Below, in pieces: positions 20,628 to 37,865 of a DNA stretch of 64,000 nucleotides. The notes below the pieces were generated by a model that did not search any database, was not told where the DNA came from, and saw only the letters and a list, made by a program, of their open reading frames with translations. A program made the position numbers and the translations under genes. Source of the stretch: Naegleria gruberi (Eukaryota); the NCBI GenBank assembly GCA_000004985.1, contig GG738849.1; one strand, 5' to 3'. The number at the start of each line of letters is the position of its first letter. The stretch's first letter is position 1.

Positions 20628-20884
20628 TTTTAAAACTCAAAACTAAATTGCTTCCACACATTATTCAAGTTATCACAACATACAAGTCATTGCATGTTTT
20701 GTATCGTCACTTATTGACAATGAAACAGAATTTTAAATGACCTGCTCAAATATAGTTCATCACTAAGAGGTGTTTGTTTTAGGCGGCACTTGTGATAGGT
20801 CGAGATGTTATCAGAACTCTAGACAATCTGCCTCAATGCATTGCTCGAAGGCATGCTCTCTTATACAGCAAAATACAATAAAAA

Positions 20885-22194
20885 ATGAGTCATTATGCTA
20901 TGCCTTTTCTGATCTTCAATCTCGGTGGAGAGATGATGTACATTCTCCATCAAAGATTGGAAGCTCAAAAGATTACCGAGGAGAAGAGTAAGAAGGTTCT
21001 TCAAGATGTAGTCAAGCATATGTTTGATGAGGAATTTATTAATGAATTGGTTAAACCTCAAAAGATGTATTCTGATGCTTCTATTAGACATGTTTTTGAA
21101 AAGTTGGCACACTCCTCCATCATGAGACTCTCCACTAGCAGTATGAACAAGGTAAGGTTGAAATGGAAAATATTACGGAATTAATATTTCCTTATTGTTA
21201 TTATTACTTATAGTTGTACGATTTGATGGTAATGGGTTTAAAGTACTCTTTCATTGCCTGTAATCACCCTCATGAAATACTCCAATTTACTTTGAATCAC
21301 TTGGATGAAATTGAAAATATTATCGGCAAGCTTGATAGTGATGAAACTGCCCTAGAAGCAAAGAAGTGTGTTCAACGAGCTGTAAACGAAATTGTTGAGG
21401 TAAGTGCTCATTGAAAGGACTTATTATTTATATTAAATTGATCAATAGATCTCAAAGAAAATGTCCCTCAATGATTTTATTAAATGCAGATATACTATTT
21501 GTAATTTCTTGAAGGATAGAAATATAAAGGTTTCAATCTTTTTGAATTGCAAGATTCAACACCGATCAAATGGTCACTTTAGAATTCCAAACAATAAGCA
21601 ATATCCACTCGGATTTGATAAGCCTGGAACTTGCAGATATTTTGAAGCTGAAGGAAATTTGAAAGAAACTGAATTAATAGCAAATCACCCAATGAAAGAT
21701 TTTACTCACAGTACAGTTACACATTCTGATTCAAATCAAAGAACAAGTGATTTGGGGGCCAACTTGTAAGTTTATTCTCCTTCCTTTATTATATTTTATG
21801 AATTTCCTAAATTTGGAATTTGTTTATTAACCATAGCTACTCTTCCACAAAACCTAAAATTGCCCAACAAGAACACACTGATGATGATAATGAAAACTAT
21901 TCATTCTCTGCTGTGAAGAAGAGTCACGACACAACTAGTGAATTAAATTTCTTGGCAAACCTTATTCATGGACCAAAAGAAACAAAGGAAACCTTCAAGG
22001 TTAACCTCTTCTCCAAGTTTGATATTTTCGAAGAACCTGAGGAAGATGAAACCGTTGAAACTGTAGAGAAAAAGTTTGAGGAATTGATTTTCGATTGTAG
22101 AGTAAGCAATAGAGTGAATGTTGACTTTGATATTAGTTCCACTCCTTCAAACATTGTTGAACAAGATGACTTGTTGGAATTGATGGATTCATAA
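20885..22194 (+). CDS. OSCP1: OSCP1 (organic solute carrier partner 1 / NOR1) homologue. Four exons: 20885..21151, 21214..21399, 21449..21765, 21837..22194.
   Basis: N-terminus MPFLIFNLGGEMMYILHQRLEAQKI…VKPQKMYSD…FEKLAHSSIMRL…MNK|LYDLMVMGLKY…LNHLD… is collinear with animal OSCP1 (LLFLNLGGEMLYILDQRL…LYDLMTMAFKYQ…). Three GT-AG introns (62, 49, 71 nt), phase-checked. Confidence 0.75.
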
Positions 22195-22308
22195 ATTTTG
22201 TATTTTATAAACTTCATATTGTTATTGAAATAGTAATCCATTTAAAGAATTAAATAAAATTCATTTAATAGGTAATTAATATTTAAATTCATTAATTGAC
22301 TAAAAAAA

Positions 22309-24216
22309 ATGGATGAAATTAACCTTGATGATTTTGCAATAAAAAATGACTCAAGCCCGTCCGATATTGTAGATAGATTGGAAATTCCTCTTCACACCAA
22401 AAATCACCATCAACAGAATAGTTATAGTGAGGAAAATTTATTAAATAATTTAAAGCTGGCCTATGAATTTTCCAAACGATTAATCCGAACTTCACTTGGA
22501 CCATTCAGTAAAGATAAACTAATTGTCAAGGGTGATTTACAAAAAAGCATCCTTGTTACGAATGATGGACGAACGTTAATGGAGGAAATGTTCAAATTGA
22601 GATCTCTCAATGAGAATAGAGAACAACATCCAATTCATACACTACTCTATCAATTATCAAAAAATCAAGACAATACAGTAGGTGATGGAACAACTAGTGT
22701 TGTCGTCTTGTGTGGAGAAATGTGTAAATTATCTGTGGAATTGATTGAAAAATGGAATTTGAGTGTAGATAAGATTATGAAAGGTTTTCAAAAAACTTTG
22801 GATTATATTTTAAGAGAATGGTTATCTGTTTTTACGAAACCATTGAGAGAGGTTGACCCAACAGAGAGCTCTTTAAAAGCTAGTAGATTTTTAAACCTTT
22901 CAAAAATCAAAGATTTAACACAGAGTGATATTGAAAAAATTGCAGCTAAATCATGCCTCCTTTCCAAACAAGTGAAAAATATTTGTGAGGAACTCAGTTC
23001 AATAGCAGTGGAAGCCATTCACGCTACAGCAGGCAAGCTTCATTTCATCAATGTGGACACTCTGATTATTGATAATCAAAATTTAATGAATCAACAACAT
23101 ATTGACAGTAGTACTAATGTAATTCTAATTGAATCTGGAATATGTTTGGTTGGTAAAAATTTGGCATCCAATTTGAATATGAAATTTTCAATGAGAGATT
23201 GCAGAATTGCTCTATTTTCATGTCCCATAGAAACACCTCGACTCAAGACACGACACCACATTAATATTACCAATTCAAAACAATATCAAGAATTGGAAGC
23301 TGTTGAAAATTCCTACCTTGAAGAAGTTATTTCAATTCTGAAGAATTGTAATGTAAATATAATAGTCTCACAATGGGGATTCGATAATAGATTTCATGAT
23401 TACCTAGTTGAGAACAACCTTATTGGTATAAGGTGGGTTGGTGCCGATGAATTGGATAGAATTGCTCTCGCTACAGGTGCCTCAATTTGCCCACAAGTGG
23501 CTCACTTTACTGAAAATATGCTTGGTTATGCTGGAAAATTTGAATATCAGGAGGGTGACAAGTTAATGACCTTTACTGAGTGCATAGAACCAAAAGTTTG
23601 CTCAATCCTAATACGATCCTCAAATGAGTTTCTTGCCCAAGAAACAGCTCGTTCCATGAATGATGCGCTAATGAGTGTTCGATCCGTATATTCTCACCTC
23701 TCCAACAAACACAATGTGTTAGAAAAGAACTCTGAAGACAATTTGGAAACTCTCTCCCTTATTCCTCCATTAAGCTATGGAGGTGGATGTTTTGAAATGC
23801 AAATTTATTCTCTCGTAATGGAAAATTTGGAAAAGATTGAACCAAATGATTTTCTCACTCAAACCATTGCCAAGCATTGGGCAAAAAGCCTTCTGGTTGT
23901 TCCATCTACATTTGCTGAAAATTCAGGACTCTCTGTAATTGAAACAATTCAAACTCTGATTGACAAGCATCAATTAGGAGAATATTATTGTGGACTATTT
24001 GCCAACTCATTCACCCAAGATGATCTATTGAGAGATGAGAAACTGATTGAGGAATATTCCAAACCTTGTTCAAATACTTGCAATTTTCTAATGCAAATTA
24101 AGAATATGAGCGAGACACAAGTTATGGAAAATATTCTTGTCAAGATGAATGTTCTCATTTTAGCAACTGAAATGGTTAATATGATTTTAAAAATTGATGA
24201 GAATATCATGTATTGA
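22309..24216 (+). CDS. Divergent group-II chaperonin (TCP-1/CCT-like) paralogue, 635 aa, single exon. Not one of the canonical CCT subunits. Candidate BBS-type chaperonin-like protein.
   Basis: LGPFSKDKLIV…ILVTNDGRTLMEEM (cf. CCT LGPxGxDKMLV…ITNDGATIL), the invariant ATP-site [10 protein letters not shown] motif, and C-terminal …SYGGGCFEMQ (cf. CCT VPGGGAxE). The rest is highly diverged. A canonical CCT-alpha is separately present at 41734..43552. Confidence 0.65.
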   Translation: MDEINLDDFAIKNDSSPSDIVDRLEIPLHTKNHHQQNSYSEENLLNNLKLAYEFSKRLIRTSLGPFSKDKLIVKGDLQKSILVTNDGRTLMEEMFKLRSLNENREQHPIHTLLYQLSKNQDNTVGDGTTSVVVLCGEMCKLSVELIEKWNLSVDKIMKGFQKTLDYILREWLSVFTKPLREVDPTESSLKASRFLNLSKIKDLTQSDIEKIAAKSCLLSKQVKNICEELSSIAVEAIHATAGKLHFINVDTLIIDNQNLMNQQHIDSSTNVILIESGICLVGKNLASNLNMKFSMRDCRIALFSCPIETPRLKTRHHINITNSKQYQELEAVENSYLEEVISILKNCNVNIIVSQWGFDNRFHDYLVENNLIGIRWVGADELDRIALATGASICPQVAHFTENMLGYAGKFEYQEGDKLMTFTECIEPKVCSILIRSSNEFLAQETARSMNDALMSVRSVYSHLSNKHNVLEKNSEDNLETLSLIPPLSYGGGCFEMQIYSLVMENLEKIEPNDFLTQTIAKHWAKSLLVVPSTFAENSGLSVIETIQTLIDKHQLGEYYCGLFANSFTQDDLLRDEKLIEEYSKPCSNTCNFLMQIKNMSETQVMENILVKMNVLILATEMVNMILKIDENIMY

Positions 24217-24499
24217 TTGAAAATCAACACCCATTGAATGTTATCCATCCTATGTAAATTGTACCACAGGCAGACATGATAGTATTATTATTCTGTTGTA
24301 AAGAAGAAAAAGAAAAATATTATTAGATTGTTGTCATCTTTGAGATTCTTTGAGAGAATGTGAAATTTCTTCAATTTCATTCAGCCACCACTTGCGACAG
24401 ACTCTGTTAAAACAGAATCAGCCAAAATATTGAATTTCCATCGCAGTTATTAAAAATCGTTTTTAAAAAAATTACCCAATTTTTGAATAGTAATATATA

Positions 24500-25399
24500 A
24501 TGGCTGCTGTCGATCTCTCTGCTTATCCACGTGTTGATTTGGCTTTCATTGGTGGCACCGGTCTCTCAAAGGCTGAAGGTCTTGAAAATGTTATCACTGT
24601 TGAACCATTTGAAACTCCATTCGGTAAACCATCATCACCAATTGTTATTGGTACTATTAACGGTTTGACTGTTGCTTTCTTGTGTAGACACGGTCTTTCT
24701 CACTCTGTTCAACCAACCGATGTTCCATATCGTGCCAACATTTTTGCTCTCAAATCACTTGGTGCTAATAATTTAGTTTCTTTCGGAGCTGTTGGTTCAT
24801 TGCAAGAAGAATTGGCTCCAAAACACTTTGTTGTTGTTGACCAATTCATTGATCGTACCAAATTCCGTCAATCTGAAAATACTTTCTATGATAGAGAAGG
24901 TTTGGTTGCTCACGTTTCATTCGGTGAACCAACTTGTAAGACTTTGTCTCAATTGGTTGTTGATTCATGCTCACGTATTGAAACTATTCCAAAGACTCAT
25001 GCCACTGGTACTTATGTCTGTATGGAAGGTCCATGTTTCTCATCACGTGCCGAAAGTAAAATGTATAGAATGTGGGGTGGTAGTATCATCGGAATGACTT
25101 GTTTGCAAGAAGCTAAATTGGCTCGTGAAGCTGAAATGGCCTTTGCTTGTGTTGGTATGGTCACTGATTATGATGCTTGGAAAGATGAAGCTGAACCAGT
25201 TACTGTTGAAGAAGTTGTCAAGATTTTGCACGATAATGGTGACAATGCTAGAAGAGTTATTCAAGAAGTTGCCAAATCTTTCACCAAGTTTGAATCAAGT
25301 GCTCACTCTGCCATGAAATTCTCCTTGTTGAAGCCAGCCAGTAGTTTAAGCGATGATCTCAAGAAGACTTATGCTCCAATTTTGGCCAAATATTATTAA
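24500..25399 (+). CDS. MTAP: S-methyl-5'-thioadenosine phosphorylase, 299 aa, single exon.
   Basis: IGGTGL…TPFGKPS…RHG…H…ANIFALKSLG…MEGPCFSSRAESKMYR…GMT…EAKLAREAEMAFA…TDYDAW is collinear with MTAP. Codon usage is distinctly C/T-rich at third positions (GGT/GCT/TTC/ATC), unlike its neighbours. Confidence 0.9.
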   Translation: MAAVDLSAYPRVDLAFIGGTGLSKAEGLENVITVEPFETPFGKPSSPIVIGTINGLTVAFLCRHGLSHSVQPTDVPYRANIFALKSLGANNLVSFGAVGSLQEELAPKHFVVVDQFIDRTKFRQSENTFYDREGLVAHVSFGEPTCKTLSQLVVDSCSRIETIPKTHATGTYVCMEGPCFSSRAESKMYRMWGGSIIGMTCLQEAKLAREAEMAFACVGMVTDYDAWKDEAEPVTVEEVVKILHDNGDNARRVIQEVAKSFTKFESSAHSAMKFSLLKPASSLSDDLKKTYAPILAKYY

Positions 25400-25908
25400 A
25401 CTTTTAAAGTTTTTTATTATTGCTTGTATCAGTAGAGAATGATCTGAAAAACAGAATGATGATGTGATGCTTATTATGCAACTAATAGTGAAAAAGGCAT
25501 CAATTTATTGGATTGAACTCATCGTAAACTCAAAGCGTGTTTGAGCACTGTACAACTTCCTCATTAGATTCAAAAAAGAAAAAATTCATCACGTTTGAAT
25601 ACAGCAACTAAAGCAGTAGAGAGCAGTAGGAGGTTGTTGATCACCCGAATAAAACGCCACAATCTATTGCCATAGATTTCTTCATTACTAACCAAACTAC
25701 CACCACACTTGTTGAAGGTTTATTTTACTGGGAAAAGTAAACCTCCATCATCATAACATTACCTCTTCATCATTTGATTGGGATTATAATTTTGTTGTAG
25801 TAACAATCTAGTATTACATTGTTTATTTCATTACTTCATCAAATAGTAATAAGAAACAATTTAAATTAAATACACACAATTAAACACTTTTAGGAGTGAA
25901 AGCACTTG

Positions 25909-28900
25909 ATGATTGATCCATCTCAAAATTCAGAGTTAGAAACCTCTTTTAATTTACTTGATCAAGAAGAAAAGGAATTAATTGAACCTCATTATCACTT
26001 TATCCAAAGATCATCAGATTGGATTGAATTAATTCATAACAAAAAACCTCTCAACAATATGCCTCATCGGAACATGTATAATGACACTCCAAGTGATACC
26101 AGCTCAAATAATATAACTCCAAGTAATGCCAATAATGATGATTCACCAGACGTTACACCACTTCATATTTATCTAACCACCCACAAACATGGTCACCACA
26201 TGATTCATGCAAAGAAGGATCAACCATTTGCTCCATCCTTTTTAAATGATGCTGGCTATGAGAGTGGCAGTTCCTCAAATGACGATGATACTGCTCCATC
26301 GAGTGCCTGCGATGAAGTCACTCCAGCCATAACTACTCCTGTTCACTTTCTAACAGAACAACATCATCCCTATTCACCTACCACAATTAACAAATCTTCC
26401 TCAACTAAAGAGTTTCCAACAAGTCACAATCCAGATAATGTACAAAAGTAAGTTTTCCCTTTTTGTTCAATGGAACTAAATTTTCTTGTGATTTGATCAT
26501 TATTTGAAATTTAGAAAAAGGTCTCGAGTTGCTTCTTTACCAGTTACAAATCAACAAGAGAAACTTGTCACAAATAATAATAGCAAAGCAAATCATCCTA
26601 CTATTACTACCAACGATAATAATACTCCTTCTACCACCTCTACCACTTCTCAAACACCTCCAACAAATATTAATAATCCAACTGCTGGTATTCATCATAT
26701 TCAAAGCCAGCCAAACATGCTTTCCAATCAACCAATATCTCTTCTTTCTCAATCATTATTAAAACAAAGTGATGAACATGACTTTTATATGGTCAACGAG
26801 GAAGAAGTTACAAGTGCTTCTGCACTTATTGGAAAACAAAAATATTATAGCGAGGTTAATTTACCAAGTATGGACGTTTCTCCTCTCAAATCGAATGGTC
26901 AATCAATGAAAAAACCAATCATCAAACATAATATTGGAAAACATCACCCAGAAGGAACAGAATCTTGGCTTTTACCAGGGGAATGTGTTCTTAATCATAT
27001 TAAAAAGGTTGGAGTCGTTAAAAATCTCCCAATTACATACTTTCCTCCAACTCATTCCAACCCACAAGCAATTTCATCTCAAGGACCTTTTATTGAGCAA
27101 CCAAAACAAGCTTCTGGAGAATTTTTAACAACAGCAGAGGAATTATTGAATGATTTTAATGTTTATGACTTATTGAATACAGTAGGCGGATCTAGCTCAA
27201 ATTATGGAAGTGCTGGAAGTACTATTAGCACTAATGGTAATGCTACTTCCACTAATGTTGGTGATCAATCTGATACTGAGCCTACTCTTGTTATTGGCGA
27301 GTTATATATTACAAATTATCAAATTAGATTCCAAGTAAGTTTCTCAATTTTTTTTAGTTATTTTAACAATTAAATAGTGCGTTGCTAAACCATCTCTAGT
27401 TCTATCAACTCCAACATCTTGTATTCTTAGAATGGCTCCAAAATATCCACAATCAGAGACAAATACCTACAGCAACTATTACAGTCAATATATTTCATCA
27501 AATGCAAATAATGGACCTACCACTGATAACAAGTTTAATAGTCTTGGATATATTAGTATTAAGAGCAAAGATTTGCAGGTTTTGAAATTTTTATTCTTTA
27601 GAGATTCTTCCTATACAATTGACAAAGTTATGGAGGCCCTTAAAGCTGCTACCTCAAAGAGAGTGTTTGCATTTGCATTCCGTAAACATATTTCCTCCTA
27701 TCCAATTCAAATATATTCTCAGGAGGATATTGAAAAGGGATGGAAGGTTTACAAGATGAAAAGAGAATTTAAAAGACAAGGCCTTTTCACAAGACACCAA
27801 AATAATCCAGCTTTTTCTTGGCGTATTAGTTCTATTAACTCAAAATTCAAAGTTTGTGACACTTATCCAGAACATTTTATTGTTCCTAAAGATGTTTCAG
27901 ATGAAATGCTTGCAGCTTCAGCAGCTTTTAGAAGTAAAGGAAGAATTCCAGTTCTTTCCTGGATTCATCCTCATAAGAATATTTGCATTGTAAGATCGAG
28001 TCAACCTATGGTAGGTATCACAAGAGCAAGATGTAAAGAAGATGAAGAGTTAGTTGATGCCATCAGAAGAGCATCTGGATCAGAGAGACTTCAGATTATT
28101 GACTGTAGACCAAAGGCAAACGCTTGGGCCAATACAGTTATGGGAAAGGGTTATGAAAATATTGCATACTATACTAACTGTTCAATAGAGTTCATGAATA
28201 TTGAAAATATTCATGCCATGACTAACAGTCTTAATTTGCTAAAGAAATTAATTCAAAATAAGCAAAATAACGATCAATATTGGCTATCTTCTTTTGAGGC
28301 AACAGGATGGTTAAAACATACCAAGTTAATCATGCAAGCAGCTTCAAAGGTTGTAACTTATATTGAAAGATTTGATACATCAGTACTTGTTCACTGTAGT
28401 GATGGATGGGATCGTACCGCACAAATCTGCGCACTTGCAGAGCTTTTATTAGACCCTTATTACAGAACTATTAAGGGATTTGAAATTCTAATTGAGAGAG
28501 AGTGGGTTTCTTTTGGTCACAAGTTTCTAGATCGTGTAGGACATGGATGTGTTGGAAAAACTAATTCAGCCTCTGATGAAATTTCTCCTGTTTTTTTACA
28601 ATTTATTGATTGTGTTTGGCAAATTTGGCAACAATATCCTTCACATTTCGAGTTTAATGAGGCGTTCCTCTTCTTAATATTGGACAGTTTATATTCTTGT
28701 CGTTTTGGAAACTTTTTATTGAATTGTGCTAAACAACAGCTCGATGAAAATATTACAAAGGATACTATTTCGGTTTGGACAGAAGTAATGACAAACCCTT
28801 CTCTGTATTATAACGATGTTTATAACCCAAAGAATAGCGAATATTCAACATTAATTGTAAATACCGACATTGACACACTCTCCACACACTTTTGGATAAG

Positions 28901-29240
28901 CTACTTTTATCGATACAAGAAGGGTTCAAAGAACAGATATCACAGAATGCTCAAAAAGGCTATCACCAAGATGAAGAAGGAAAATGCAATTCTCTTGAAT
29001 TCTTTACAAGAGGAACTGTTGACAAGGAAGAGAATTGAGCTAGAGTTGGCCCAATCCAAACAAAAAATCAAATTTCTCGAAGGTCATAATTCATTAACTG
29101 ATGAATCCCACATAAGTGATTCGTATGGAAGTCATCCTGCTTCTGACACTTTAAGTTACAATGGTGAAGATGGAGACACGAAAGTTATTCGCTTCTCAAC
29201 CAGTGTGAAAGAAAATCTGGTGGAAAATTACTTTAAGTAA
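25909..29240 (+). CDS. Myotubularin-family phosphoinositide 3-phosphatase (active CX5R site) with a long low-complexity N-terminal region. Three exons: 25909..26447, 26515..27334, 27378..29240.
   Basis: Catalytic loop VLVHCSDGWDRTAQ (C-x5-R) with upstream RPKANAWANTVMGKGYEN and …SWIHP… Introns of 67 nt (GTAAGT…TTAG) and 43 nt (GTAAGT…ATAG). The ATG at 25909 follows an in-frame TGA. Exon lengths are phase-consistent. Confidence 0.8.
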
Positions 29241-29277
29241 AACCACACAAAACATTTTAAACTTAATAATTTATTGC

Positions 29278-31708
29278 TTAATCCTCTTCTTCATCGTCTT
29301 CCTCTTCCTCCTCCTCTTCTTCTTCCTCTTCTTCTTCCTCTTCTTCATCGTCTTCCTCTTCTTCTTCCTCTTCTTCCTCTTCTTCCTCTTCTTCATCTTC
29401 GTCTTCAGAACCTTCTTCTAGTTCATTTACATATTCTTTACAAAGAGCCAAAATTGGTTTCATACTTTCTTCATCCAAATGTTCGTCATACCATTCAATA
29501 ACAGTATCATTATCCACAAGTTCTTGTACATTTAAAATCTTCACTATTGTGATAAGTGCTGGACGATACTTAACACCTTCATCGCTAGCTACAAAGTATA
29601 ACAAGTGGGTTAAGAGTAAAACTCTAGATTTCTTTACGCCCAACTTTAAGAAGTGTTCGAGCACTTCCATCCAACATCTCTTTCCATCTTTTCCAGTCAA
29701 TACATCAATAAACTTAGAAAGGAAATCAGTAATGTCATCCTTCTTTGAAATTGTGTCACAATAAACTAAAATACCAGTGAGACAACCAATGGCGATATCT
29801 TCAAAGCTGCTGTCATAGGTAAACTTGAGACCATTAAGTTCAAGTTTTGCATTTTCAATGCTGTGATTTTCGTCTATTGATCTTCTAATACTGGCTCTAA
29901 CCTCATCAAAGAAATCTATTCAGAAGGTAATTATGGATTGAAATATTACTAAATACTTACTAGCATCATCGATATCTTCATGATGTTGTTTGGTTGGCTT
30001 AACAACTTTATCACGCAAAGCCATATCTGATTCAAGTTTATCAGCATCAGCTTGAGAAACTCCCAATCTGTTAATTAATTGATCGCTCAAGAAGGATGGC
30101 AAAACGTGCAAAGAACCCACACCATTAACACCAACATAATTCTTGTTATTGACAACTTTTTTGGCAACCAGGTTGATACTTTTTCTTTCATTTTCAAAGG
30201 CATCATCAAATGAAACTTCTTCTTCTTGATTGGAATATTCATCCTTATCATATTCAATAGTTGTTAATCTGTGATGAGATTTGACAGTAAAATCTGGTCC
30301 AATAACAACATCATATGAAAGTACAGCACCGGTTTCCAATACAGAGTTTGTACACACTTTGACATTATCACAAATGAGAGATGATGTGATCTTTACATTA
30401 TCTTCAATAATAACATTATCCCAAATAAAACTAGCCTCAATTTGAACATTATTACCAATTTGAACATTTTTACCAATTACTGTTGCTTTGATCTTGGTAT
30501 TTTCTCCAATTATTGTTCCACTTCCAATTAAGCAATTTTCTCCAATCACACAACTCTTTGAGAGAGAAATGTTTGATTCATAATAGTTATTTGGTCTTGA
30601 ATATCTGAATGAAGTAGTTCCAGAAAAATTAGAATCTGGAGTGATAGGATACATCCATCTATTGATAAGATCCATGCTAATACTTTCATATGAATTGAGA
30701 TTACAAACTCTACCAGTATATCCATTATCATCAATATAAGCAATGACCTTATGTTCAACAACTTCCGATTTGTGGAGAACATATTTTTGGAATAAATCAT
30801 TTCTTAAATGCTTGTAATCGAATTGATCTTGGAAAACAGGAAGAATTTCAGGAGAACAAATATCAATTCTACAATCCATAACGTCAGAATAAATTCTAAT
30901 ATTATCTTTTGTTTGTTTAAAGTGACGAGTTTCAATCTTAAAATCAAGATTTTCCTTCTTTTCATTTTCATAATGTAATAATTGTTTACTCTTTTCAGAG
31001 ACAGCAATCCAAACAGAATCATTATCTTCATAGAATCTAACAGTATCTGGAGTACATTTACGGAAAATTGTTGTTGCCAAAATGTTGGAATCTAATTTTC
31101 TTTCAGCTCTAAAAAATGTACATTAAAATCAATCGAAATACAATAATAACATACTTGTGTCTTTCCACAATTGGTGCAAGATTAATATTACTAATCACAT
31201 CTCCTTGAATTAAAATAAAATCATTTCTAATTAAATCCATATCAGCAATTCTTCTGAGAGCATCACCAGCAGATTTGGCATCAGTTCCAACAATGGTAGA
31301 TACTTTAATATCAGCACTTGTTGCTTTTGGTGATTGTTTCCACTTGTTTGATGTTCTATTGACCAATTATTTGTATAAATATTTACTATTAATCTCTGGT
31401 ATCACTTACTCCAAATAACGTTTAATTTCATCGGCTCCGTGGCAACAATAAACATAAATTTCTTTTACTCCTGATGAAGCTAACAACTCCAAAATATATT
31501 CGATAATAGGAATGTTATTAACTGGAAGTAAACACTATTAAATAACAACAAGTGTGATTTTAATCAGCACGGATACTATTAAACAACATACTCTTGGTTT
31601 AGATAATGTAATTGGTCTCATTTCCTTTGTGAAAGAGTCGGCCAAAACGACCGCCTTTAAAACATCTTCAGTCTTGACTGGACCACCAGTCTTTTTAGTC
31701 TTTTTCAT
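29278..31708 (-). CDS. Translation initiation factor eIF2B epsilon. Five exons: 31708..31592, 31534..31410, 31355..31155, 31108..29961, 29915..29278. C-terminal W2 domain ends in a long pure-acidic tail.
   Basis: Nucleotidyl-transferase-like N-terminus (VVLADSFTKEMRPITLSKPR|CLLPVNNIPIIEYILE), hexapeptide-repeat LbH region (…IGENCLIGSGTIIGENTKIKATVIGKNVQIGNNVQIE…), W2 domain with AA-boxes (…VIEWYDEHLDEE…). Introns of 57, 54, 46 and 45 nt, all GT-AG, phase-checked. Confidence 0.8.
29281..29400. repeat. (GAR)n trinucleotide microsatellite (CTC/TTC on the + strand) encoding the ~40-residue poly-Glu/Asp tail of eIF2B-epsilon.
   Basis: Near-perfect CTTCTTCCTCTTC… run visible on the + strand. Translates on the minus strand to EEEEEEEEEEEEEEDDEEEEE…. 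Confidence 0.85.
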
Positions 31709-31895
31709 TTTTTTTAAATCAATTTTGAAAATTATCTTTTACTGGTAAGCAACTATTATTTAAATTAATAATAATAATTAGAAATTTTATTAATATCGCA
31801 CCAATACGCATGTCAGGATTGAATGATTATATAAATAATTTCTTAAAACTCATTATTTAATGTATTCAAAATATTCTAAAGTTAATTGGTTTTAC

Positions 31896-33578
31896 TTAGT
31901 CACGTTTTACTCTCTTACTGTCTTGTGAGGAAGGTGTTGGGTGCTCTGTTCTTCTACCAGTACTTGTATTGGTTAAAAGTTGACTAGTTGTTAAGGATGG
32001 TTGAGTTCTGAGGAGAAGACTTGGAGATACAAATGTTTGAGATGAATTTACAGTGGTGGAGGATTGAGAAGTGCCAGAATTTTCATTTTGTCTTCTCATT
32101 CTAGAAATTTTGATATTTTCCTTATAAATTTCTTCCTTAGATATTACACTTTCGAGGGCATCTTTTCTAGAGCTTTGCAAGTTACAATAGAGACCTTCAA
32201 TTGCACGTTGCATAGAGTTTAAAACTTGAATTGGATCAGAAGCTACTTCCTTCATCCATCCATCTCTCATTACTTCTGTGGCATTTACATCACTGGAGAC
32301 CTTTTCAAACTTTTTCAAAGTGTCAAAAATCTCACACTCTGGGAAAATGCCAATCCACTCACTAAATCTTACAACATTGGAATTAACGAGATTGGTTGTG
32401 CTTTGGGAGCTGGCTCCACCAGGTATCGCTGTATTTAGTTGAGTAGGAAGAGAGGTGTGATGATCTAGCACAGAGCCACTAATATTTGATTCCCAAGAAG
32501 ATTTCCACTTGTTGGAAATTGTTGTCTTGAGCTTGAGTATTACTTCAGAATCATCTGTTGAAAATTTATCTGTATTGGCTTGATAAATATCAATAATATC
32601 CTCAATGCAGTCAAAATCATCTTGAAGTCTCTTTAAAATTGTTTCCAATATTGTAGGTGTAATAACATAACGAGTAGCCTTATTCGCAATTATCAATCTC
32701 TTTACACAAGCAATTGATTGATTCTTCTTCAAAGTAAAGTATTGATCCAACACATTCTCTCCATCATCCAATTTAACATAATCCGAGTCCCAAATACCTG
32801 GTTCAACTTCTTTAGCTGCATCAAGAACAGAATTAAAGTTAAGCATAATTAGGGTATCAACAATGGCCATTAAAATATCTCTGAAATTTGGATCCATACA
32901 CAAGGAACTATTTCTAAAATACCATATTGTATAGTCAAATGCTTTCTTTAAGTTTTTCAATTCAGAGACGTAATAAAATAATGTCCCATATTCAAATACT
33001 CTGAATCCATGAACAATTTCAGATCTGAGCTTCAAAAATCTGTTTGCTGAATTACTATCTTCCATTCTTAATTCGTTTAATTTTTGATTCTGGAGATAGA
33101 TCAAGAGCTTTTTTGATTTTTCGCTATTGTAATCTCTTAAATTTTCAATAAAGGCAAAAACATCCCCCTCACAAAATTTGGCAATAAATTCATCCTCATC
33201 ATATGGCCTCTGTTGACAATTACTTTCATTTGCACTCTCCACGGAATATAAAAATTCAAAAAAGCCTATGCAAAGTACTTTCATCAGTGATGTTGTTAAA
33301 TCATTCAACTCTATCGGATCACTTGGATTAATGTCCGTTTTCATCCACATTAATAATAATTGTACTAGTGATTGAATATATTGTTTTGGGTTTTGACTAT
33401 CACTCAAGAGCATATAGAGTGAGTGATCACATTTGCCATCTGTACTTCTACTAAATAATCCCTTCTCTCTGTTTTTAAATTGGCTATTGTCACCAGATCC
33501 ACCCAAGTGGTCCAAAGTATTATTATTTGTTTCGCCATCGTCTGTTTTTTCAGAGGCACCACCAGGTGATGATGGCAT
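31896..33578 (-). CDS. Hypothetical protein, 560 aa, single exon. No recognised domain.
   Basis: ATG at 33578..33576. Continuous ORF. Gly/Ser-rich N-terminus and a Ser/Thr-rich basic C-terminus ending …KRVKRD (NLS-like). Confidence 0.5.
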   Translation of the reverse strand: MPSSPGGASEKTDDGETNNNTLDHLGGSGDNSQFKNREKGLFSRSTDGKCDHSLYMLLSDSQNPKQYIQSLVQLLLMWMKTDINPSDPIELNDLTTSLMKVLCIGFFEFLYSVESANESNCQQRPYDEDEFIAKFCEGDVFAFIENLRDYNSEKSKKLLIYLQNQKLNELRMEDSNSANRFLKLRSEIVHGFRVFEYGTLFYYVSELKNLKKAFDYTIWYFRNSSLCMDPNFRDILMAIVDTLIMLNFNSVLDAAKEVEPGIWDSDYVKLDDGENVLDQYFTLKKNQSIACVKRLIIANKATRYVITPTILETILKRLQDDFDCIEDIIDIYQANTDKFSTDDSEVILKLKTTISNKWKSSWESNISGSVLDHHTSLPTQLNTAIPGGASSQSTTNLVNSNVVRFSEWIGIFPECEIFDTLKKFEKVSSDVNATEVMRDGWMKEVASDPIQVLNSMQRAIEGLYCNLQSSRKDALESVISKEEIYKENIKISRMRRQNENSGTSQSSTTVNSSQTFVSPSLLLRTQPSLTTSQLLTNTSTGRRTEHPTPSSQDSKRVKRD

Positions 33579-33789
33579 TATTTTTAATTATTAATATTTT
33601 TTTAACTTTGATGCAACCGTTAATAATTGTGTTTGAGCAAAGATTTGTGCTTCAACAAATTTATTTTTGTTCAAATTTACAAATATTAATGTGTTTTTTC
33701 AAATATTAAAAAGTCTGGTTTGGTTTCACGAAGCTCCAATAAACAATTTTCCTACAATATAAGATATATATGTTCATTATGAACATGAT

Positions 33790-33861
33790 TCCCGTGTAGT
33801 CCAATGGCTAGGATACCTGGCTTTCACCCAGGAGGTCCGGGTTCAATTCCCGGCATGGGAG
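33790..33861 (+). tRNA. tRNA-Glu (anticodon UUC).
   Basis: Cloverleaf readable by eye. Acceptor TCCCGTG/CATGGGA (one G-U pair). Anticodon stem CCTGG/CCAGG with loop CTTTCAC (anticodon TTC). T-arm GGTCCGGGTTCAATTCCCGGC. Near-identical to the eukaryotic cytosolic tRNA-Glu(UUC) consensus. Confidence 0.9.
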
Positions 33862-34049
33862 AATCATTTTGTCAAATTTGTTTTTCAATATGAAAACCAC
33901 TCGATTTTTCAGCAGTTAAATAAATTCTTAATTTGAGAATATTGTATTTACAGTCTGATGATCTTAAAACCTTTTATGGCTCCATCCAAAAGAGTTCTCA
34001 ATCAGTAAGCTATTCTTTAAAAAAAATATAAAAACCTTTTTCTGTACAG

Positions 34050-35801
34050 ATGGCACCTCTCACTATTCGCAAACAAGCCACACAACCAATCCCAGGACAA
34101 AAGATGGGTACAAGTGGTCTTCGTGTCAAAGTTAAGCTTGTTGAAAATACACCATCTTTCCTTGAAAATTTCTCCCAAAGTGTATTCAATATTATTCTCT
34201 CATCGGAACAAGGATTGATCGGAAAGGTAAATGATCAAGGATGTTTACAAATGGTTATTGGTGGAGATGGTCGTTATTATAACAAGAAGGCCATTCAAAC
34301 CATCTTGAAGATTCTCTATGCTAATGCTGTTGCTCGTAATTTGAAAATTCATGTTAGAGTTGGGCAGGATGGTGTTGTTTCTACACCTGCAGTTTCGTGT
34401 ATGATTAGAAAATATAAGGCCGAATTGGGTGGTTTGATTTTGACAGCATCTCACAATCCTGGTGGTCCAAATAATGATTGGGGAATTAAATACAATGCAC
34501 CAAATGGAGGACCTGCTCCTGAAAAGATTACTGACATTATTTATCAACAGTCAACTCAAATTACTGAATATCATACTTGTGATGAATTCCCAGAGATTGA
34601 TTTTTCTCACATTTCTGATGTCTTTTCTGATGAACATTTGAAAGTTTCAGTTATTGATCCTGTAGATGACTATTATGAATTGCTCAGTACAATTTTCGAT
34701 ATGGAAAAGATTAAGAAATTAATTCAAAGGGATGATTTCAATTTATTGTTCGATGCCATGCATGGTGTCACAGGTCCCTATGCCAAGAGAATTTTACATG
34801 AGAAATTAGGAGCTGATCCTCAAAAGAATTTGATTAATTATGTTCCAAGTGAAGATTTTGGAAAGGGTCATCCAGATCCAAATCTTACCTATGCTGAAGA
34901 ATTGGTCAAGAAGGTATTGAATGATGAAAATAGTATTATTGATTTGGGAGCTGCATCTGATGGTGATGGTGATAGAAACATGATTCTTGGTAAACACTTT
35001 TTTGTCACTCCTTCTGATTCTGTTGCAATTATTGCTGATTATGCACAAAGGTGCATTCCATATTTCCAAAAGAGTGGAATTTCTGGATTGGCTAGATCCA
35101 TGCCAACTAGTACAGCCCTCGACAGAGTTGCTAAAGCTCTGGGTGTAAATATTTATGAAGTACCTACTGGATGGAAGTATTTTGGTAATTTATTTGATGC
35201 TGGTAAACTCTCTATTTGTGGTGAAGAGTCATTTGGTACTGGAAGTGATCATATCAGAGAAAAGGATGGTATGTGGGCTGTTTTGAGTTGGCTCTCAATA
35301 ATGGCATTTGAAAATGAAAATACCAAAACCTCAGTTGCAGACATTGTAAAGAATCACTGGAAGAAATATGGTAGAAGCTATTATACCAGATATGACTATG
35401 AAGAAGTTAGCTCTGAAGGTGCCAACAATATGATGTCTCACATTAGAGATACCTATGTTACTCCATTCCAAACTAATTCTCTCTCTGAAGAATCTAAAAA
35501 GTTATTCGAATCTTTGAGTGTTGCTTCATGTGAAGAATTCTCCTACACTGATCCTATTGATAACAGCTTTACTGGAAAGCAGGGAATGATCTTCAAATTG
35601 GTTGACCAAAGTAGAATTGTATTCAGATTATCTGGTACAGGAAGTTCTGGAGCAACTGTTAGAGTTTATATGGAAAAGTATAATCCAGATCGTTTGGATG
35701 GAAACCCACTCGAAGAAGTCAAACCACTTGCCCATGTCGCTCTCACTGTTAGCAAACTAGCTGAATTCACTGGTAGAAATGAACCAACAGTTATTACTTA
35801 A
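34050..35801 (+). CDS. Phosphoglucomutase (PGM1 type), 583 aa, single exon.
   Basis: GTSGLRVKV… and the catalytic phosphoserine loop TASHNPGGPNNDWGIKYN. Metal-binding DGDGDRNM. Full-length collinear with the alpha-D-phosphohexomutase family. Confidence 0.9.
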   Translation: MAPLTIRKQATQPIPGQKMGTSGLRVKVKLVENTPSFLENFSQSVFNIILSSEQGLIGKVNDQGCLQMVIGGDGRYYNKKAIQTILKILYANAVARNLKIHVRVGQDGVVSTPAVSCMIRKYKAELGGLILTASHNPGGPNNDWGIKYNAPNGGPAPEKITDIIYQQSTQITEYHTCDEFPEIDFSHISDVFSDEHLKVSVIDPVDDYYELLSTIFDMEKIKKLIQRDDFNLLFDAMHGVTGPYAKRILHEKLGADPQKNLINYVPSEDFGKGHPDPNLTYAEELVKKVLNDENSIIDLGAASDGDGDRNMILGKHFFVTPSDSVAIIADYAQRCIPYFQKSGISGLARSMPTSTALDRVAKALGVNIYEVPTGWKYFGNLFDAGKLSICGEESFGTGSDHIREKDGMWAVLSWLSIMAFENENTKTSVADIVKNHWKKYGRSYYTRYDYEEVSSEGANNMMSHIRDTYVTPFQTNSLSEESKKLFESLSVASCEEFSYTDPIDNSFTGKQGMIFKLVDQSRIVFRLSGTGSSGATVRVYMEKYNPDRLDGNPLEEVKPLAHVALTVSKLAEFTGRNEPTVIT

Positions 35802-35838
35802 AACTCGATTTATTGTATTATTATTAACATTAAAGAAA

Positions 35839-37457
35839 TTATTGATTTTCATCAATTTTTTGTAGTAATTCCTTATCATAGCCAGGTGTGTAATATTTGA
35901 CAAGTTCTTCAGGATAAAGGTTGTTGATAAATTTGATACTTTCTTGCAGAGATTCTTCTTCTGTTTTGATTAATTGCAACTTTTGAAGACCCTTAGATTG
36001 AACAAATCTCTTCTTTGCTTCAACATCATCTGGTAAAAGAGCTTCAAATTGCTTGACAACATATTTCAAAATACTTTCTGGGGCCTTTTCAGAAAGTAAT
36101 GGATTAAGGGCATCAAGATATGTACATTTTTGTATAATTGCTTTGAGGGCTCTCTTTGACTTACTCTTCAAGTCTTCAGAAGCCTTGTCATCAAGGAAAG
36201 ATTCATTCAAAAGTGTCAAAATATTAGCTTCAGCAACGGCCTTTGCGTGTTCTGAACTGTGTCTACCAATTTGTCCCAAACTCCATGCAGCAGCTGCACG
36301 AAGGTGATCGGAATATGATGGTGACAAACAATTTCCTAGTGGTTGAACTGCCTTGGCCTTAATGACAGCAGTGGCCATTGTTTCTTGGAAGGCAGCAATA
36401 AATCCTAGAATCATAATACCTGGTAATTTGTTATCACCCTCTGCATTACTGATATAATCAACAATAGCTGGTAAACCACCAGCATTGACAATTAGTGAAG
36501 CCAATTCAGGATTGTGCTTTGATACTTGCATAATACAAGAGGCAGCATTCTTTCTGACAATTTCATCATCTGGGTCTTGTAATAAAGCAAAAATCTTTGG
36601 GAAAATTTCTCCTTCAACAACCAATTCTGCCAATTCAACAGAATGTTTAGCAATGAAGGCAAGACATTGACATGCTTGTCTCTTTACCATTGGATTGAGA
36701 ATGAGTGGTGTTATAACTGGAATACCTTCAGCATCAACTACAGATTGAGCTAGCTCAGGAGTGTGACTGCAAATATTGGCAAGAGATGAAATTGCGACCT
36801 TTTTCAGAGTTTGTTCTGGTTGTTGGGCACAAGTCAAAAGTAACCCCACACAACCATGATCTACACAAATCTGAGCCAACTCTGGTGTATGTATTGAGAT
36901 ATTTCCGATTGCATATGCTGCAGATTCCTTTACCAAAGGATCAAATTCATCCAAACATTTTACCAAAGCTTCTACAGATCCAGAATCAACAACAGCTTGT
37001 GCTAATCTTGGTCCGTGCTTGGCGATAGCTCGCAGAACGAAAGCTGCATGTCTTTGATAGTATTTCTAAACAATATTAAGACGACAATTATTTTAAATAA
37101 TTCGTGAAGAAACATACATTATTCTTGAGGATGGAAGCAACCAATTGAGGGACAATATCACTTGCAACGATCTTCTCGGCAAGTTGAGGGTTATAATTGG
37201 CCAATCTTCCCAATGCAAGAGCAGCATTTTGTTGAACACTTGGATCGCTATCGAGCAAAAGTGGACGGAGCAAATCCAGAACACCAGTTTCTTGTTGAAT
37301 CATAGCTAAAATCGTTCATCATTAATTTTGTCCTCCAATCATTTTACATACCTTCGATATGTCTTGGTTGTTTTACGAGTTCGGCAACACTATTGGCAAA
37401 CGTAATTCTTGCCTTCTTGTATGAAGCGAATACTTGTTGAATTTCCTTTGAGGCCAT
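35839..37457 (-). CDS. SPAG6: SPAG6/PF16 orthologue (armadillo-repeat central-pair protein of motile cilia). Three exons: 37457..37352, 37305..37118, 37065..35839.
   Basis: Collinear with Chlamydomonas PF16 / mammalian SPAG6 throughout: MASKEIQQVFASYKKARITFANSVAELVKQPRHIE|…LLRPLLLDSDPSVQQNAALALGRLANYN…|KYYQRHAAFVLRAIAKHGPRLAQAVVD…LVKCLDEFDPLVKE…SPGYDKELLQKIDENQ. Introns of 46 and 52 nt (GTATGT…TTAG), phase-consistent. Confidence 0.8.
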
Positions 37458-37865
37458 TTTTTTTATGTGTTTGATTGTACATTAGGCATGGCGGGAAACA
37501 GTTGTAAATAATTTGCTTGTTTTTCAAACCACCATTTTTGGCGGCATTTTGTTTGACATTTTGAAACAACCTCTCAAACTGTTATTGTTAAGAATTTAGG
37601 ATTCTTGAATCATCAACCCAACTCTCTACAATTTTGAACAATCTAAGGAGCCACTTTCATTGAAGGGAATTAACGATCATACTATTTCGAATCCATTTCC
37701 AACTCCCTTTTAGAAGCAGAAAGATTAATTGTCATCACTAATAAAATTTTATTTTATTTTTAATTAAAAAAACGTGTTATTGTTGTGTAGATTTTTTCCA
37801 GGCATCACACTACAAATTTTCGGCATCATCTTGTATCATTAATTATAATATTCACAAAAGGAAGA

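What the first reader, a model, noticed from the sequence alone, without database searches (positions are those of the whole stretch)
20885..37457. Co-occurrence of three cilium/flagellum-associated genes (OSCP1, BBS-type CCT-like chaperonin, SPAG6/PF16) in 17 kb
OSCP1 (20885-22194) and a highly divergent CCT-like chaperonin (22309-24216) are adjacent, head-to-tail, only 114 bp apart. A clear SPAG6/PF16 orthologue lies 12 kb downstream (35839-37457).

By established knowledge:
- SPAG6/PF16 is a central-pair protein confined to organisms with motile 9+2 axonemes.
- Divergent CCT-like proteins outside the eight canonical subunits are, where characterised, the BBS6/10/12 chaperonin-like proteins needed for BBSome assembly.
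- OSCP1 has a phylogenetic distribution biased toward ciliated eukaryotes.

Together these indicate a flagellated source organism. Codon usage, start context and low-complexity tracts had otherwise looked dictyostelid-like. They also raise the possibility of local clustering or co-regulation of flagellar genes, which is the normal situation in, for example, Naegleria during differentiation.
Basis: partly seen in the sequence, partly recalled or inferred. Interest (0 to 1): 0.6.

Follow-up and report, generated by a model that had tools for sequence, protein, structure and literature searches.

The report
Chance neighbours plus one odd chaperonin
The three genes are real and the DNA is from the amoeboflagellate Naegleria gruberi, but their closeness looks like coincidence, and the odd chaperonin is a fast-evolving offshoot of the CCT epsilon subunit, not a Bardet-Biedl-type chaperonin.

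Summary
OSCP1 (4 exons, 20885-22194), a 635-aa CCT-like ORF (22309-24216, 114 bp downstream) and SPAG6/PF16 (3 exons, 35839-37457, minus strand) are all present. The window is Naegleria gruberi NEG-M, a known flagellate, and all three genes are already in the public annotation.

SPAG6 is a clear orthologue. It scores 561 and 537 bits, full length, against solved SPAG6 and PF16. OSCP1 is a published, validated ciliary protein.

The BBS reading is not supported.
- The CCT-like protein scores best on CCT epsilon.
- It carries two epsilon-only sequence signatures.
- Its GDGTT ATP site is intact.
- It is almost unrelated to genuine MKKS/BBS6 (23 bits).
- Its closest relatives are other divergent epsilon-like proteins, and less securely dictyostelid ones, from organisms without cilia.

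It evolves fast (57% identity between Naegleria species, against about 87% for SPAG6) but under purifying selection (dN/dS 0.18).

The arrangement is absent from N. fowleri and N. lovaniensis. Two ciliary genes among about eight is within chance. No motif is shared by all three promoters, although OSCP1 and SPAG6 share a few rare words.

Unresolved: whether Naegleria also has a canonical CCT5, and how OSCP1 and the CCT-like gene are expressed during differentiation.

The parts
20885..22194 (+). OSCP1 gene with four exons (20885-21151, 21214-21399, 21449-21765, 21837-22194), encoding 375 aa
   Evidence: The spliced model is in frame with GT-AG introns. It is identical to NAEGRDRAFT_63091, 'Protein OSCP1'. 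It matches Pfam PF10188.
22195..22308 (+). 114-bp, very AT-rich spacer between the OSCP1 stop and the CCT-like ATG; presumed promoter of the CCT-like gene
   Evidence: Sequence read. It holds no GC-rich word shared with the OSCP1 or SPAG6 upstream regions.
22309..24216 (+). Divergent, epsilon-derived CCT-like chaperonin: a single 635-aa ORF, annotated publicly as NAEGRDRAFT_30508 with 580 aa
   Evidence: Pfam Cpn60_TCP1 293 bits. TIGR02343 epsilon 251.6 bits is the best model but lies below the 710.5 cutoff. The epsilon signatures and GDGTT are intact. The AF2 model has pLDDT 81 and its top fold matches are human CCT5 chains.
35839..37457 (-). SPAG6/PF16 central-pair armadillo-repeat protein with three exons (37457-37352, 37305-37118, 37065-35839), encoding 506 aa
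   Evidence: Gene model. Identical to NAEGRDRAFT_30562. Full-length matches to solved SPAG6 and PF16.
20758..20855 (+). OSCP1 upstream region holding three rare words: CATCACTAA (20758), GGCGGCA (20782) and AGGCATG (20849)
   Evidence: Each word occurs only 2-3 times in the 64 kb.
37484..37741 (+). SPAG6/dynamin divergent intergenic region. It holds the same three rare words (37484, 37540, 37733) and two E2F-like TTTSSCGS sites (37491-37498, 37537-37544)
   Evidence: The N. fowleri SPAG6 upstream region also contains TGCCGCC about 40 bp before the ATG (sequence printed, read by eye).
41882..43552 (+). Context only: canonical CCT alpha subunit, 18 kb downstream of the CCT-like gene
   Evidence: TIGR02340 alpha 798.5 bits. 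This shows that ordinary CCT subunits in this organism are well conserved.

Best explanation
The window is a piece of the Naegleria gruberi NEG-M genome, and the three genes are unrelated neighbours in a gene-dense chromosome.

- SPAG6 is the ordinary armadillo-repeat protein of the central pair of the 9+2 axoneme.
- OSCP1 is the conserved protein that in animals sits at the ciliary base and axoneme.
- The third gene is neither a canonical CCT subunit nor a BBS6/10/12-type protein. It is a fast-evolving descendant of the CCT epsilon (CCT5) lineage. It keeps the whole group II chaperonin fold and every nucleotide-binding and hydrolysis motif.

Shown: its descent from the epsilon lineage, its conservation under purifying selection in three Naegleria species, and the lack of conserved linkage to the ciliary genes.

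Inferred: it is an extra, ninth chaperonin that works as an ATP-driven folding subunit. It would either replace CCT5 in a subset of rings or form rings of its own, as CCT5 can. Nothing ties it to the flagellum.
For: Organism and gene identities:
- Exact matches to N. gruberi proteins.
- SPAG6 scores 561 and 537 bits, full length, against solved SPAG6 and PF16.
- OSCP1 matches Pfam Oscp1 and is a validated ciliary protein (PMC6522010).

Epsilon descent of the CCT-like protein:
- TIGR subunit scores are epsilon 252, thermosome 226, gamma 168, theta 144 and beta 101 bits.
- Against the PDB by sequence, CCT5 scores 193 bits, thermosome 144 and gamma 113.
- The top Foldseek matches are human CCT5 chains.
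- The exhaustive phmmer search returns canonical or divergent epsilon proteins as nearest relatives.
- QWG(F/I)D plus (R/S)WV.G occur only in CCT5 and these orphans, among 130 aligned group II chaperonins.
- hhalign scores the orphan family at 891 against CCT5, 728 against thermosome and 124 against MKKS.

Functional gene:
- GDGTT, the GGG motif and the catalytic Asp are conserved.
- dN/dS is 0.18 between N. fowleri and N. lovaniensis.
- The AF2 model has pLDDT 81.

Fast evolution: 57% identity between Naegleria species, against about 87% for SPAG6.

No cluster:
- N. fowleri and N. lovaniensis share a different neighbourhood around the CCT-like gene, with no OSCP1, MTAP or SPAG6 within 10 kb.
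- Their SPAG6 genes lie on other contigs.
- No non-trivial word is shared by all three promoters.
Against: - I could not show that Naegleria has a separate canonical CCT5, so 'ninth paralogue' is an inference. It rests on three things: CCT alpha in the same window is canonical (798 bits), the epsilon-like gene evolves very fast, and dictyostelids have a similar orphan beside all eight CCTs (PMC10074162).
- The total-epsilon clade has only 26-64% NJ bootstrap support. Long-branch effects are likely, and no maximum-likelihood tree could be run.
- OSCP1 and SPAG6 promoters share three rare words in the same distal-to-proximal order. This hints at co-regulation of those two genes, though not because they are near each other.
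Confidence: 0.75

Rival explanations
1. The CCT-like gene is Naegleria's only CCT epsilon subunit. On this reading it is a canonical ring member that has simply evolved very fast, not an extra paralogue.
For: - No canonical Naegleria CCT5 appeared in any search, and none is mentioned in the literature searched.
- UniRef names the N. fowleri orthologue 'CCT-epsilon'.
- Its closest relatives, P0005-P0009, have normal CCT length and lie on very gene-dense contigs, where they could be the sole epsilon.
Against: - The searches could not have found a canonical copy. They use a word prefilter and list only the top 120 hits.
- CCT alpha from the same window scores 798 bits on its own model, while this protein reaches only 252 of the 710.5 bits required.
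- It is 57% identical between congeners whose SPAG6 is about 87% identical.
- It carries about 100 aa of insertions.
- Such divergence in one obligate member of a fixed eight-subunit ring, while another member stays canonical, would be unusual. This last point is my inference.
Confidence: 0.12
2. The three genes form a functional flagellar neighbourhood, co-regulated during the amoeba-to-flagellate differentiation because they lie together.
For: - Two validated ciliary genes lie within 17 kb.
- The OSCP1 and SPAG6 upstream regions share GGCGGCA, AGGCATG and CATCACTAA. Only 2 of 136 control promoter pairs share two or more comparably rare 7-mers.
- SPAG6 is induced in differentiation (bioRxiv 10.1101/2024.01.08.573270).
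Against: - The linkage is absent from N. fowleri and N. lovaniensis.
- Five unrelated housekeeping genes (MTAP, myotubularin, eIF2B epsilon, an unknown, PGM) lie between the CCT-like gene and SPAG6.
- The CCT-like promoter lacks the shared words in all three species.
- My estimate: if 2-5% of genes are ciliary, dozens of 8-gene windows with two or more such genes are expected by chance in a genome of about 15,700 genes. The gene number is from memory of Fritz-Laylin et al. 2010.
- Shared promoter words would explain co-regulation without any need for proximity.
Confidence: 0.05
3. The CCT-like protein is a BBS6/10/12-type chaperonin that assembles the Naegleria BBSome.
For: - It is a divergent CCT-like protein in a ciliated organism.
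- A Dictyostelium orphan chaperonin was placed as sister to animal BBS12 (PMC10074162). That protein may be the same as P0175, which groups weakly (56-63% bootstrap) with the Naegleria clade.
Against: - MKKS is essentially unrelated to it: BLAST 23 bits with E = 0.03, hhalign 124 against 891 for CCT5, and 0 of 100 bootstraps.
- MKKS scores highest on thermosome, theta and gamma, and lowest on epsilon.
- MKKS lacks GDGTT and the QWG/RWV signatures, which the Naegleria protein keeps.
- BBS chaperonins are reported to derive from CCT8 (PMC2846930) and to have arisen in Opimoda (PMC10074162).
- The possible dictyostelid relatives come from organisms without cilia.
Confidence: 0.04

Closest known systems
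CCT epsilon (CCT5, TCP-1 epsilon; TIGR02343)
   Same: It is the best-matching subunit by HMM, by PDB sequence and by fold. It shares the epsilon-only QWGFD and RWV.G signatures and all ATP-site motifs.
   Different: It scores only 252 bits against a 710.5-bit cutoff and is 28-29% identical to canonical CCT5. It carries about 100 aa of insertions, including an N-terminal extension, and evolves several times faster.
Divergent epsilon-like orphans: P0005-P0009 and P0138 (unidentified AT-rich eukaryotes), dictyostelid P0175/P0230/P0183/P0191, Gefionella P0144
   Same: They share the QWG signature and a derived DKLIV motif. NJ support is 90-99% for the clade with P0005-9 and P0138, 56-63% once dictyostelids are added, and 61-84% once Gefionella is added as well. 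The dictyostelid proteins have insertions at the same two sites.
   Different: Identity is only 23-36%, so monophyly may be a long-branch artefact. Dictyostelids have no cilia. Whether P0175 is the published DDB_G0268902 'BBS12-like' protein is inferred from its description, not checked.
BBS6/MKKS, BBS10, BBS12 chaperonin-like proteins
   Same: All are divergent members of the group II chaperonin superfamily outside the eight canonical CCT subunits.
   Different: They have a different origin, from CCT8 according to PMC2846930. MKKS has lost GDGTT and lacks the epsilon signatures. Similarity to the Naegleria protein is at noise level. BBS10 and BBS12 were not compared.
Lineage-specific CCT paralogues such as CCT6B and CCT8L1/2 (PMC2846930)
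   Same: Each is an extra copy of a single subunit lineage with a faster rate of change.
   Different: Those are vertebrate or mammalian duplicates of zeta and theta. This one derives from epsilon and is in a discobid protist.
SPAG6 / PF16
   Same: It aligns over the full length at 537-561 bits to the solved proteins and is built of armadillo repeats.
   Different: Nothing notable. It is an ordinary orthologue.

Membership tests
CCT epsilon (TIGR02343 equivalog) | Whole-protein score above the curated cutoff (710.5 bits) | tested here: not met
   It scores 251.6 bits. The N. fowleri and N. lovaniensis orthologues score 236-246 bits. Canonical CCT5 scores 900-914 bits.
CCT epsilon (TIGR02343 equivalog) | Epsilon is the best-matching subunit, and epsilon-specific sequence signatures are present | tested here: met
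   Epsilon ranks first by HMM, by PDB sequence and by fold. QWGFD and RWV.G are present, and occur only in CCT5-type sequences among the 130 aligned.
CCT epsilon (TIGR02343 equivalog) | Intact nucleotide-binding and hydrolysis motifs (LGP..DK, TNDG, GDGTT, catalytic Asp, GGG) | tested here: met
   G64, P65, K70, D86, G87, G125-T128, D452 and G491-G493 are invariant or nearly invariant columns.
CCT epsilon (TIGR02343 equivalog) | Is the single subunit occupying the CCT5 position of the hetero-oligomeric ring | not testable with these tools
   This needs the full Naegleria proteome, to see whether a canonical CCT5 exists, and biochemistry.
BBS6/10/12 chaperonin-like proteins | Groups with BBS6/10/12 (CCT8-derived lineage) rather than with a canonical subunit | tested here: not met
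   Tested for BBS6 only. Results were BLAST 23 bits, hhalign 124 against 891 for CCT5, and 0 of 100 bootstraps. The theta model is among its lowest scores.
BBS6/10/12 chaperonin-like proteins | Occurs in the lineage where these proteins are reported (Opimoda, mostly Metazoa) | tested here: not met
   The organism is Naegleria gruberi, a heterolobosean (PMC4819266). That this lineage lies outside Opimoda is established taxonomy, not tested here. The reported range comes from PMC10074162.
BBS6/10/12 chaperonin-like proteins | Required for BBSome assembly; located at the basal body or centrosome | not testable with these tools
   Experimental.
SPAG6/PF16 | Full-length similarity to the solved central-apparatus proteins; armadillo repeats | tested here: met
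   9ijj SPAG6 scores 561 bits over residues 1-505, and 7n6g PF16 scores 537 bits over residues 1-503. Arm and HEAT repeat hits were found.
OSCP1 (PF10188) | Pfam Oscp1 domain above the gathering score | tested here: met
   Exon 1 scores 111.8 bits and exon 3 scores 33.2 bits, against a cutoff of 25. UniRef names the protein OSCP1.
OSCP1 (PF10188) | Distribution restricted to, or biased toward, ciliated eukaryotes | not tested
   No homology search was left for it. Its ciliary role in animals is taken from PMC6522010.
Co-regulated gene cluster | Gene order conserved in related species | tested here: not met
   The N. fowleri and N. lovaniensis loci hold only the CCT-like gene. SPAG6 lies on other contigs with other neighbours.
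Co-regulated gene cluster | Shared cis-elements among all members | tested here: not met
   Only A/T-rich 6-7-mers are shared by all three upstream regions. The rare words are shared by OSCP1 and SPAG6 only.
Co-regulated gene cluster | Co-expression during differentiation | not testable with these tools
   The papers with the data (PMC2987438, PMC11753955) are not held, and the supplements that are held lack the gene IDs. Only SPAG6 is reported, as induced in both mitosis and differentiation.

The most novel reading that the evidence does not exclude
The Naegleria protein may belong to an unrecognised, patchily retained ninth CCT lineage, which could be called 'CCT5-like'.

- It would have split from epsilon before the divergence of Discoba and Amorphea.
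- It would survive in Naegleria, dictyostelids (including the protein published as 'BBS12-like'), a malawimonad and some unidentified protists.
- In Naegleria it could be a specialised chaperonin subunit for one of the organism's two separate tubulin sets (mitotic or flagellar).
Probability: 0.25. Interest if true: 0.55.

Novelty: new member of a known kind. Interest (0 to 1): 0.25.

Why it matters
As a 'flagellar gene cluster' it does not matter. The genes are annotated, the organism is a textbook flagellate, and the linkage is not conserved.

The modest value lies in the chaperonin.
- It shows that extra CCT-like proteins outside animals need not be BBS-type.
- A simple signature (QWG.D with RWV.G) ties the Naegleria orphan, and apparently the dictyostelid ones, to the epsilon lineage. 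That bears on a published 'BBS12-like' assignment.

If the protein proved to be a dedicated subunit for Naegleria's flagellar or mitotic tubulins, it would be a useful handle on how chaperonin specificity evolves.

The rare words shared by the OSCP1 and SPAG6 promoters are a cheap lead. The transcription factors that control cilia genes in Naegleria are still unknown (PMC12183034).

Tried and rejected
- **Exact look-up of the 635-aa ORF** failed. The public model has 580 aa.
- **Expression data.** Fritz-Laylin & Cande 2010 (PMC2987438) and Kennard et al. 2025 (PMC11753955) are not held. The bioRxiv version has no supplements held. The EMBO Rep supplements and full-text searches for the gene, UniProt and RefSeq IDs gave nothing relevant.
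- **A canonical Naegleria CCT5.** Literature searches found nothing. The homology tool lists only the 120 best of 8000 word-filtered candidates, so a targeted search was not feasible.
- **Profile search with the orphan-family alignment** returned no new members, and not even the dictyostelid sequences in the query.
- **Foldseek against AFDB** was unavailable.
- **Local duplication of the CCT gene 18 kb away.** Rejected, because that gene is alpha, not epsilon.
- **Transfer from a microsporidian-like parasite.** I considered this because the relatives P0006-P0008 lie on compact, AT-rich contigs. There is no supporting evidence. The EukProt relative comes from a gene set with more than 11,000 numbered genes, and tblastx found no other shared genes. 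The question is left open.
- **E2F-like sites as a shared element.** Rejected. They occur only upstream of SPAG6.

Full report
**Source and observation**

The 299-aa MTAP ORF at 24500-25396 is identical to N. gruberi NEG-M XP_002681687.1, on an 850-kb scaffold. The window has about 33% G+C throughout.

- **OSCP1.** My spliced model has exons 20885-21151, 21214-21399, 21449-21765 and 21837-22194, with canonical GT-AG introns, and encodes 375 aa. It is identical to NAEGRDRAFT_63091, 'Protein OSCP1', and carries Pfam Oscp1.
- **CCT-like gene.** This is an uninterrupted 635-aa ORF at 22309-24216, starting 114 bp after the OSCP1 stop. It scores 293 bits on Pfam Cpn60_TCP1.
- **SPAG6.** My model has exons 37457-37352, 37305-37118 and 37065-35839 on the minus strand and encodes 506 aa. 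It is identical to NAEGRDRAFT_30562. It aligns end to end with solved SPAG6 (9ijj, 561 bits) and Chlamydomonas PF16 (7n6g, 537 bits).

**OSCP1 and SPAG6**

The CiliaCarta study validated OSCP1 as a ciliary protein. [quoted passage not shown] A Naegleria study reports PF16/SPAG6 as upregulated in both mitosis and differentiation (bioRxiv 10.1101/2024.01.08.573270). Both are ordinary, already annotated ciliary genes.

**The CCT-like protein: sequence and fold comparisons**

- Subunit-specific NCBIfam models rank epsilon first at 251.6 bits, far below the 710.5-bit cutoff. Next come thermosome (226), gamma (168), eta, delta, alpha, theta (144), zeta and beta (101).
- Against the PDB by sequence, CCT5 scores 193 bits, thermosomes 144 and gamma 113.
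- An AlphaFold2 model (pLDDT 81, pTM 0.79) has the complete group II fold. Its best Foldseek matches are CCT5 chains of human TRiC.
- Orthologues exist in N. lovaniensis and N. fowleri at only 57% identity. SPAG6 of the same species falls in the same 90% cluster and aligns at 87%.
- dN/dS between N. fowleri and N. lovaniensis is 0.124/0.69 = 0.18. The gene is therefore functional but fast-evolving.
- The canonical CCT alpha gene in this same window (41882-43552) scores 798.5 bits on its own model. Naegleria chaperonins are not divergent in general.

**Relatives of the CCT-like protein**

An exhaustive phmmer search of 1.84 billion representatives found only 29 proteins at E ≤ 1e-30. Apart from one tandem-duplicated thermosome, P0142, and one fragment with no family match, P0137, every top hit I classified is canonical CCT5 or a divergent epsilon-like protein. 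They include:

- P0005-P0009 and P0138, from unidentified AT-rich, gene-dense eukaryotic contigs, three of which lie next to Vps16;
- a dictyostelid group: D. discoideum KAM9965084.1, Tieghemostelium DLAC_10550 and Acytostelium;
- the malawimonad Gefionella;
- Ceratiomyxa.

**Signatures and trees**

In a 130-sequence alignment, the motif QWG(F/I/M)D followed by (R/S)WV.G occurs only in canonical CCT5 and in these orphans. Other CCT subunits and thermosomes have QKGID...RRV. GDGTT and the other ATP-site motifs are intact.

Neighbour-joining bootstraps under three distance corrections give these support values:

| Grouping | Bootstrap support |
|---|---|
| Naegleria + P0005-9 + P0138 | 90-99% |
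| plus dictyostelids | 56-63% |
| plus Gefionella | 61-84% |
| whole epsilon group | 26-64% |

No maximum-likelihood program was available, and long-branch attraction is a real risk.

**Test against BBS proteins**

I fetched genuine MKKS/BBS6 sequences with a probe recalled from memory. Their identity was confirmed by the source names of the hits.

- MKKS scores best on thermosome (97-99 bits) and then on theta and gamma (57-73 bits). It scores lowest on epsilon, at 23 bits or below the reporting threshold.
- MKKS has CQKVIHP, IDRIG and FSDCGLF at the positions of QWGFD, RWV.G and GDGTT.
- MKKS matches the Naegleria protein at 23 bits, E = 0.03.
- MKKS never groups with the Naegleria protein (0 of 100 bootstraps).
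- Profile-profile scores of the orphan family are 891 against CCT5, 728 against thermosomes and 124 against MKKS.

Published work derives BBS6/10/12 from the CCT8 lineage (PMC2846930) and places their origin in Opimoda (PMC10074162). BBS10 and BBS12 themselves could not be compared.

PMC10074162 describes a Dictyostelium orphan chaperonin (DDB_G0268902). Its best hits outside dictyostelids are thermosomes, and the authors cautiously call it BBS12-like. P0175 fits that description, yet it carries the epsilon signatures. Its identity with DDB_G0268902 is inferred, not verified.

**Is there a cluster?**

- N. fowleri and N. lovaniensis share with each other a different neighbourhood around the CCT-like gene: Hep_59, PSF2, an alpha/beta hydrolase, a dehydrogenase, a PPR protein and a kinase.
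- tblastn finds no OSCP1, MTAP, PGM or SPAG6 within 10 kb of the CCT-like gene in either species.
- Their SPAG6 genes lie on other contigs, with unrelated neighbours in N. fowleri.
- The rest of the window is housekeeping: mS41, MTHFR, PLD, PPR, MTAP, myotubularin, eIF2B epsilon, PGM, dynamin, Fcf2, CCT alpha, guanylate kinase and others.
- My estimate is that, with 2-5% of genes ciliary, two or more in an eight-gene stretch is expected dozens of times in a genome of this size.

**Promoters**

The three upstream regions share only A/T-rich 6-7-mers. OSCP1 and SPAG6 do share GGCGGCA, AGGCATG and CATCACTAA.

- Each word occurs only 2-3 times in the 64 kb.
- In both promoters the words lie in the same distal-to-proximal order relative to the gene, although each is reverse-complemented.
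- Only 2 of 136 control promoter pairs share two or more comparably rare 7-mers.
- N. fowleri SPAG6 also has TGCCGCC about 40 bp upstream of its ATG (sequence printed, read by eye).

This is a post hoc lead for co-regulation of those two genes. It does not depend on their proximity, and it excludes the CCT-like gene.

**Verdict**

The inference about the organism is right, the BBS assignment is wrong, and the cluster is not supported.

The one object worth a note is the epsilon-derived orphan chaperonin. Two things remain open: whether it is a ninth CCT paralogue, and whether it is related by descent to the dictyostelid orphans.

Noticed in passing
window 22879-22941, 23719-23775, 23989-24033: The public model NAEGRDRAFT_30508 (580 aa) omits three in-frame segments (aa 191-211, 471-489, 561-575) of an uninterrupted ORF. 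The N. fowleri and N. lovaniensis genes are single-exon and show partial similarity across these segments in the alignment. The annotated introns are therefore probably false and the 635-aa product is probably correct.
   Followed up: partly
window 20758-20855 and 37484-37741: The OSCP1 and SPAG6 upstream regions share three words that are rare in the window (CATCACTAA, GGCGGCA, AGGCATG). The words lie in the same distal-to-proximal order relative to each gene. TGCCGCC is also upstream of N. fowleri SPAG6. This may be a cis-element of cilia genes in Naegleria.
   Followed up: partly
window 37491-37498 and 37537-37544: Two E2F-like sites (TTTCCCGC, TTTGGCGG) lie within 90 bp upstream of the SPAG6 ATG. 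The whole window has 6 such sites, against 2.1 expected. This fits the published report that SPAG6 is also upregulated in mitosis, but it is only a consensus match.
   Followed up: partly
window 41882-43552: A canonical CCT alpha gene (798.5 bits on TIGR02340) lies 18 kb from the divergent CCT-like gene. There are thus two chaperonin-family genes in one window, but they belong to different subunit lineages and are not a local duplication.
   Followed up: yes
proteins P0175, P0230, P0183, P0191 (dictyostelids; no locus fetched): Dictyostelid orphan chaperonins carry the CCT5-only QWG.D and .WV.G signatures and an intact GDGTT. If P0175 is the DDB_G0268902 protein published as 'BBS12-like' (PMC10074162), an epsilon origin seems more likely than a BBS12 relationship.
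   Followed up: partly
L003 5981-7516, L004 3463-5130, L006 1852-3402: The closest non-Naegleria relatives (P0006-P0008) all sit head-to-head with a Vps16 gene on AT-rich (25-32% G+C), very gene-dense contigs from unidentified eukaryotes in metagenomes and Logan assemblies. The organism was not identified.
   Followed up: no
window 14484-16748 (-): This gene encodes a DUF747 (TAPT1/Emp65 family) membrane protein. From memory, human TAPT1 has been reported at the centrosome and ciliary base, but the family also occurs in organisms without cilia. I did not count it as a ciliary gene.
   Followed up: no
window 29278-29700 (-): The 3' part of the eIF2B-epsilon-like gene ends in a run of about 45 Glu/Asp residues. 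This is an unusually long acidic tail.
   Followed up: no
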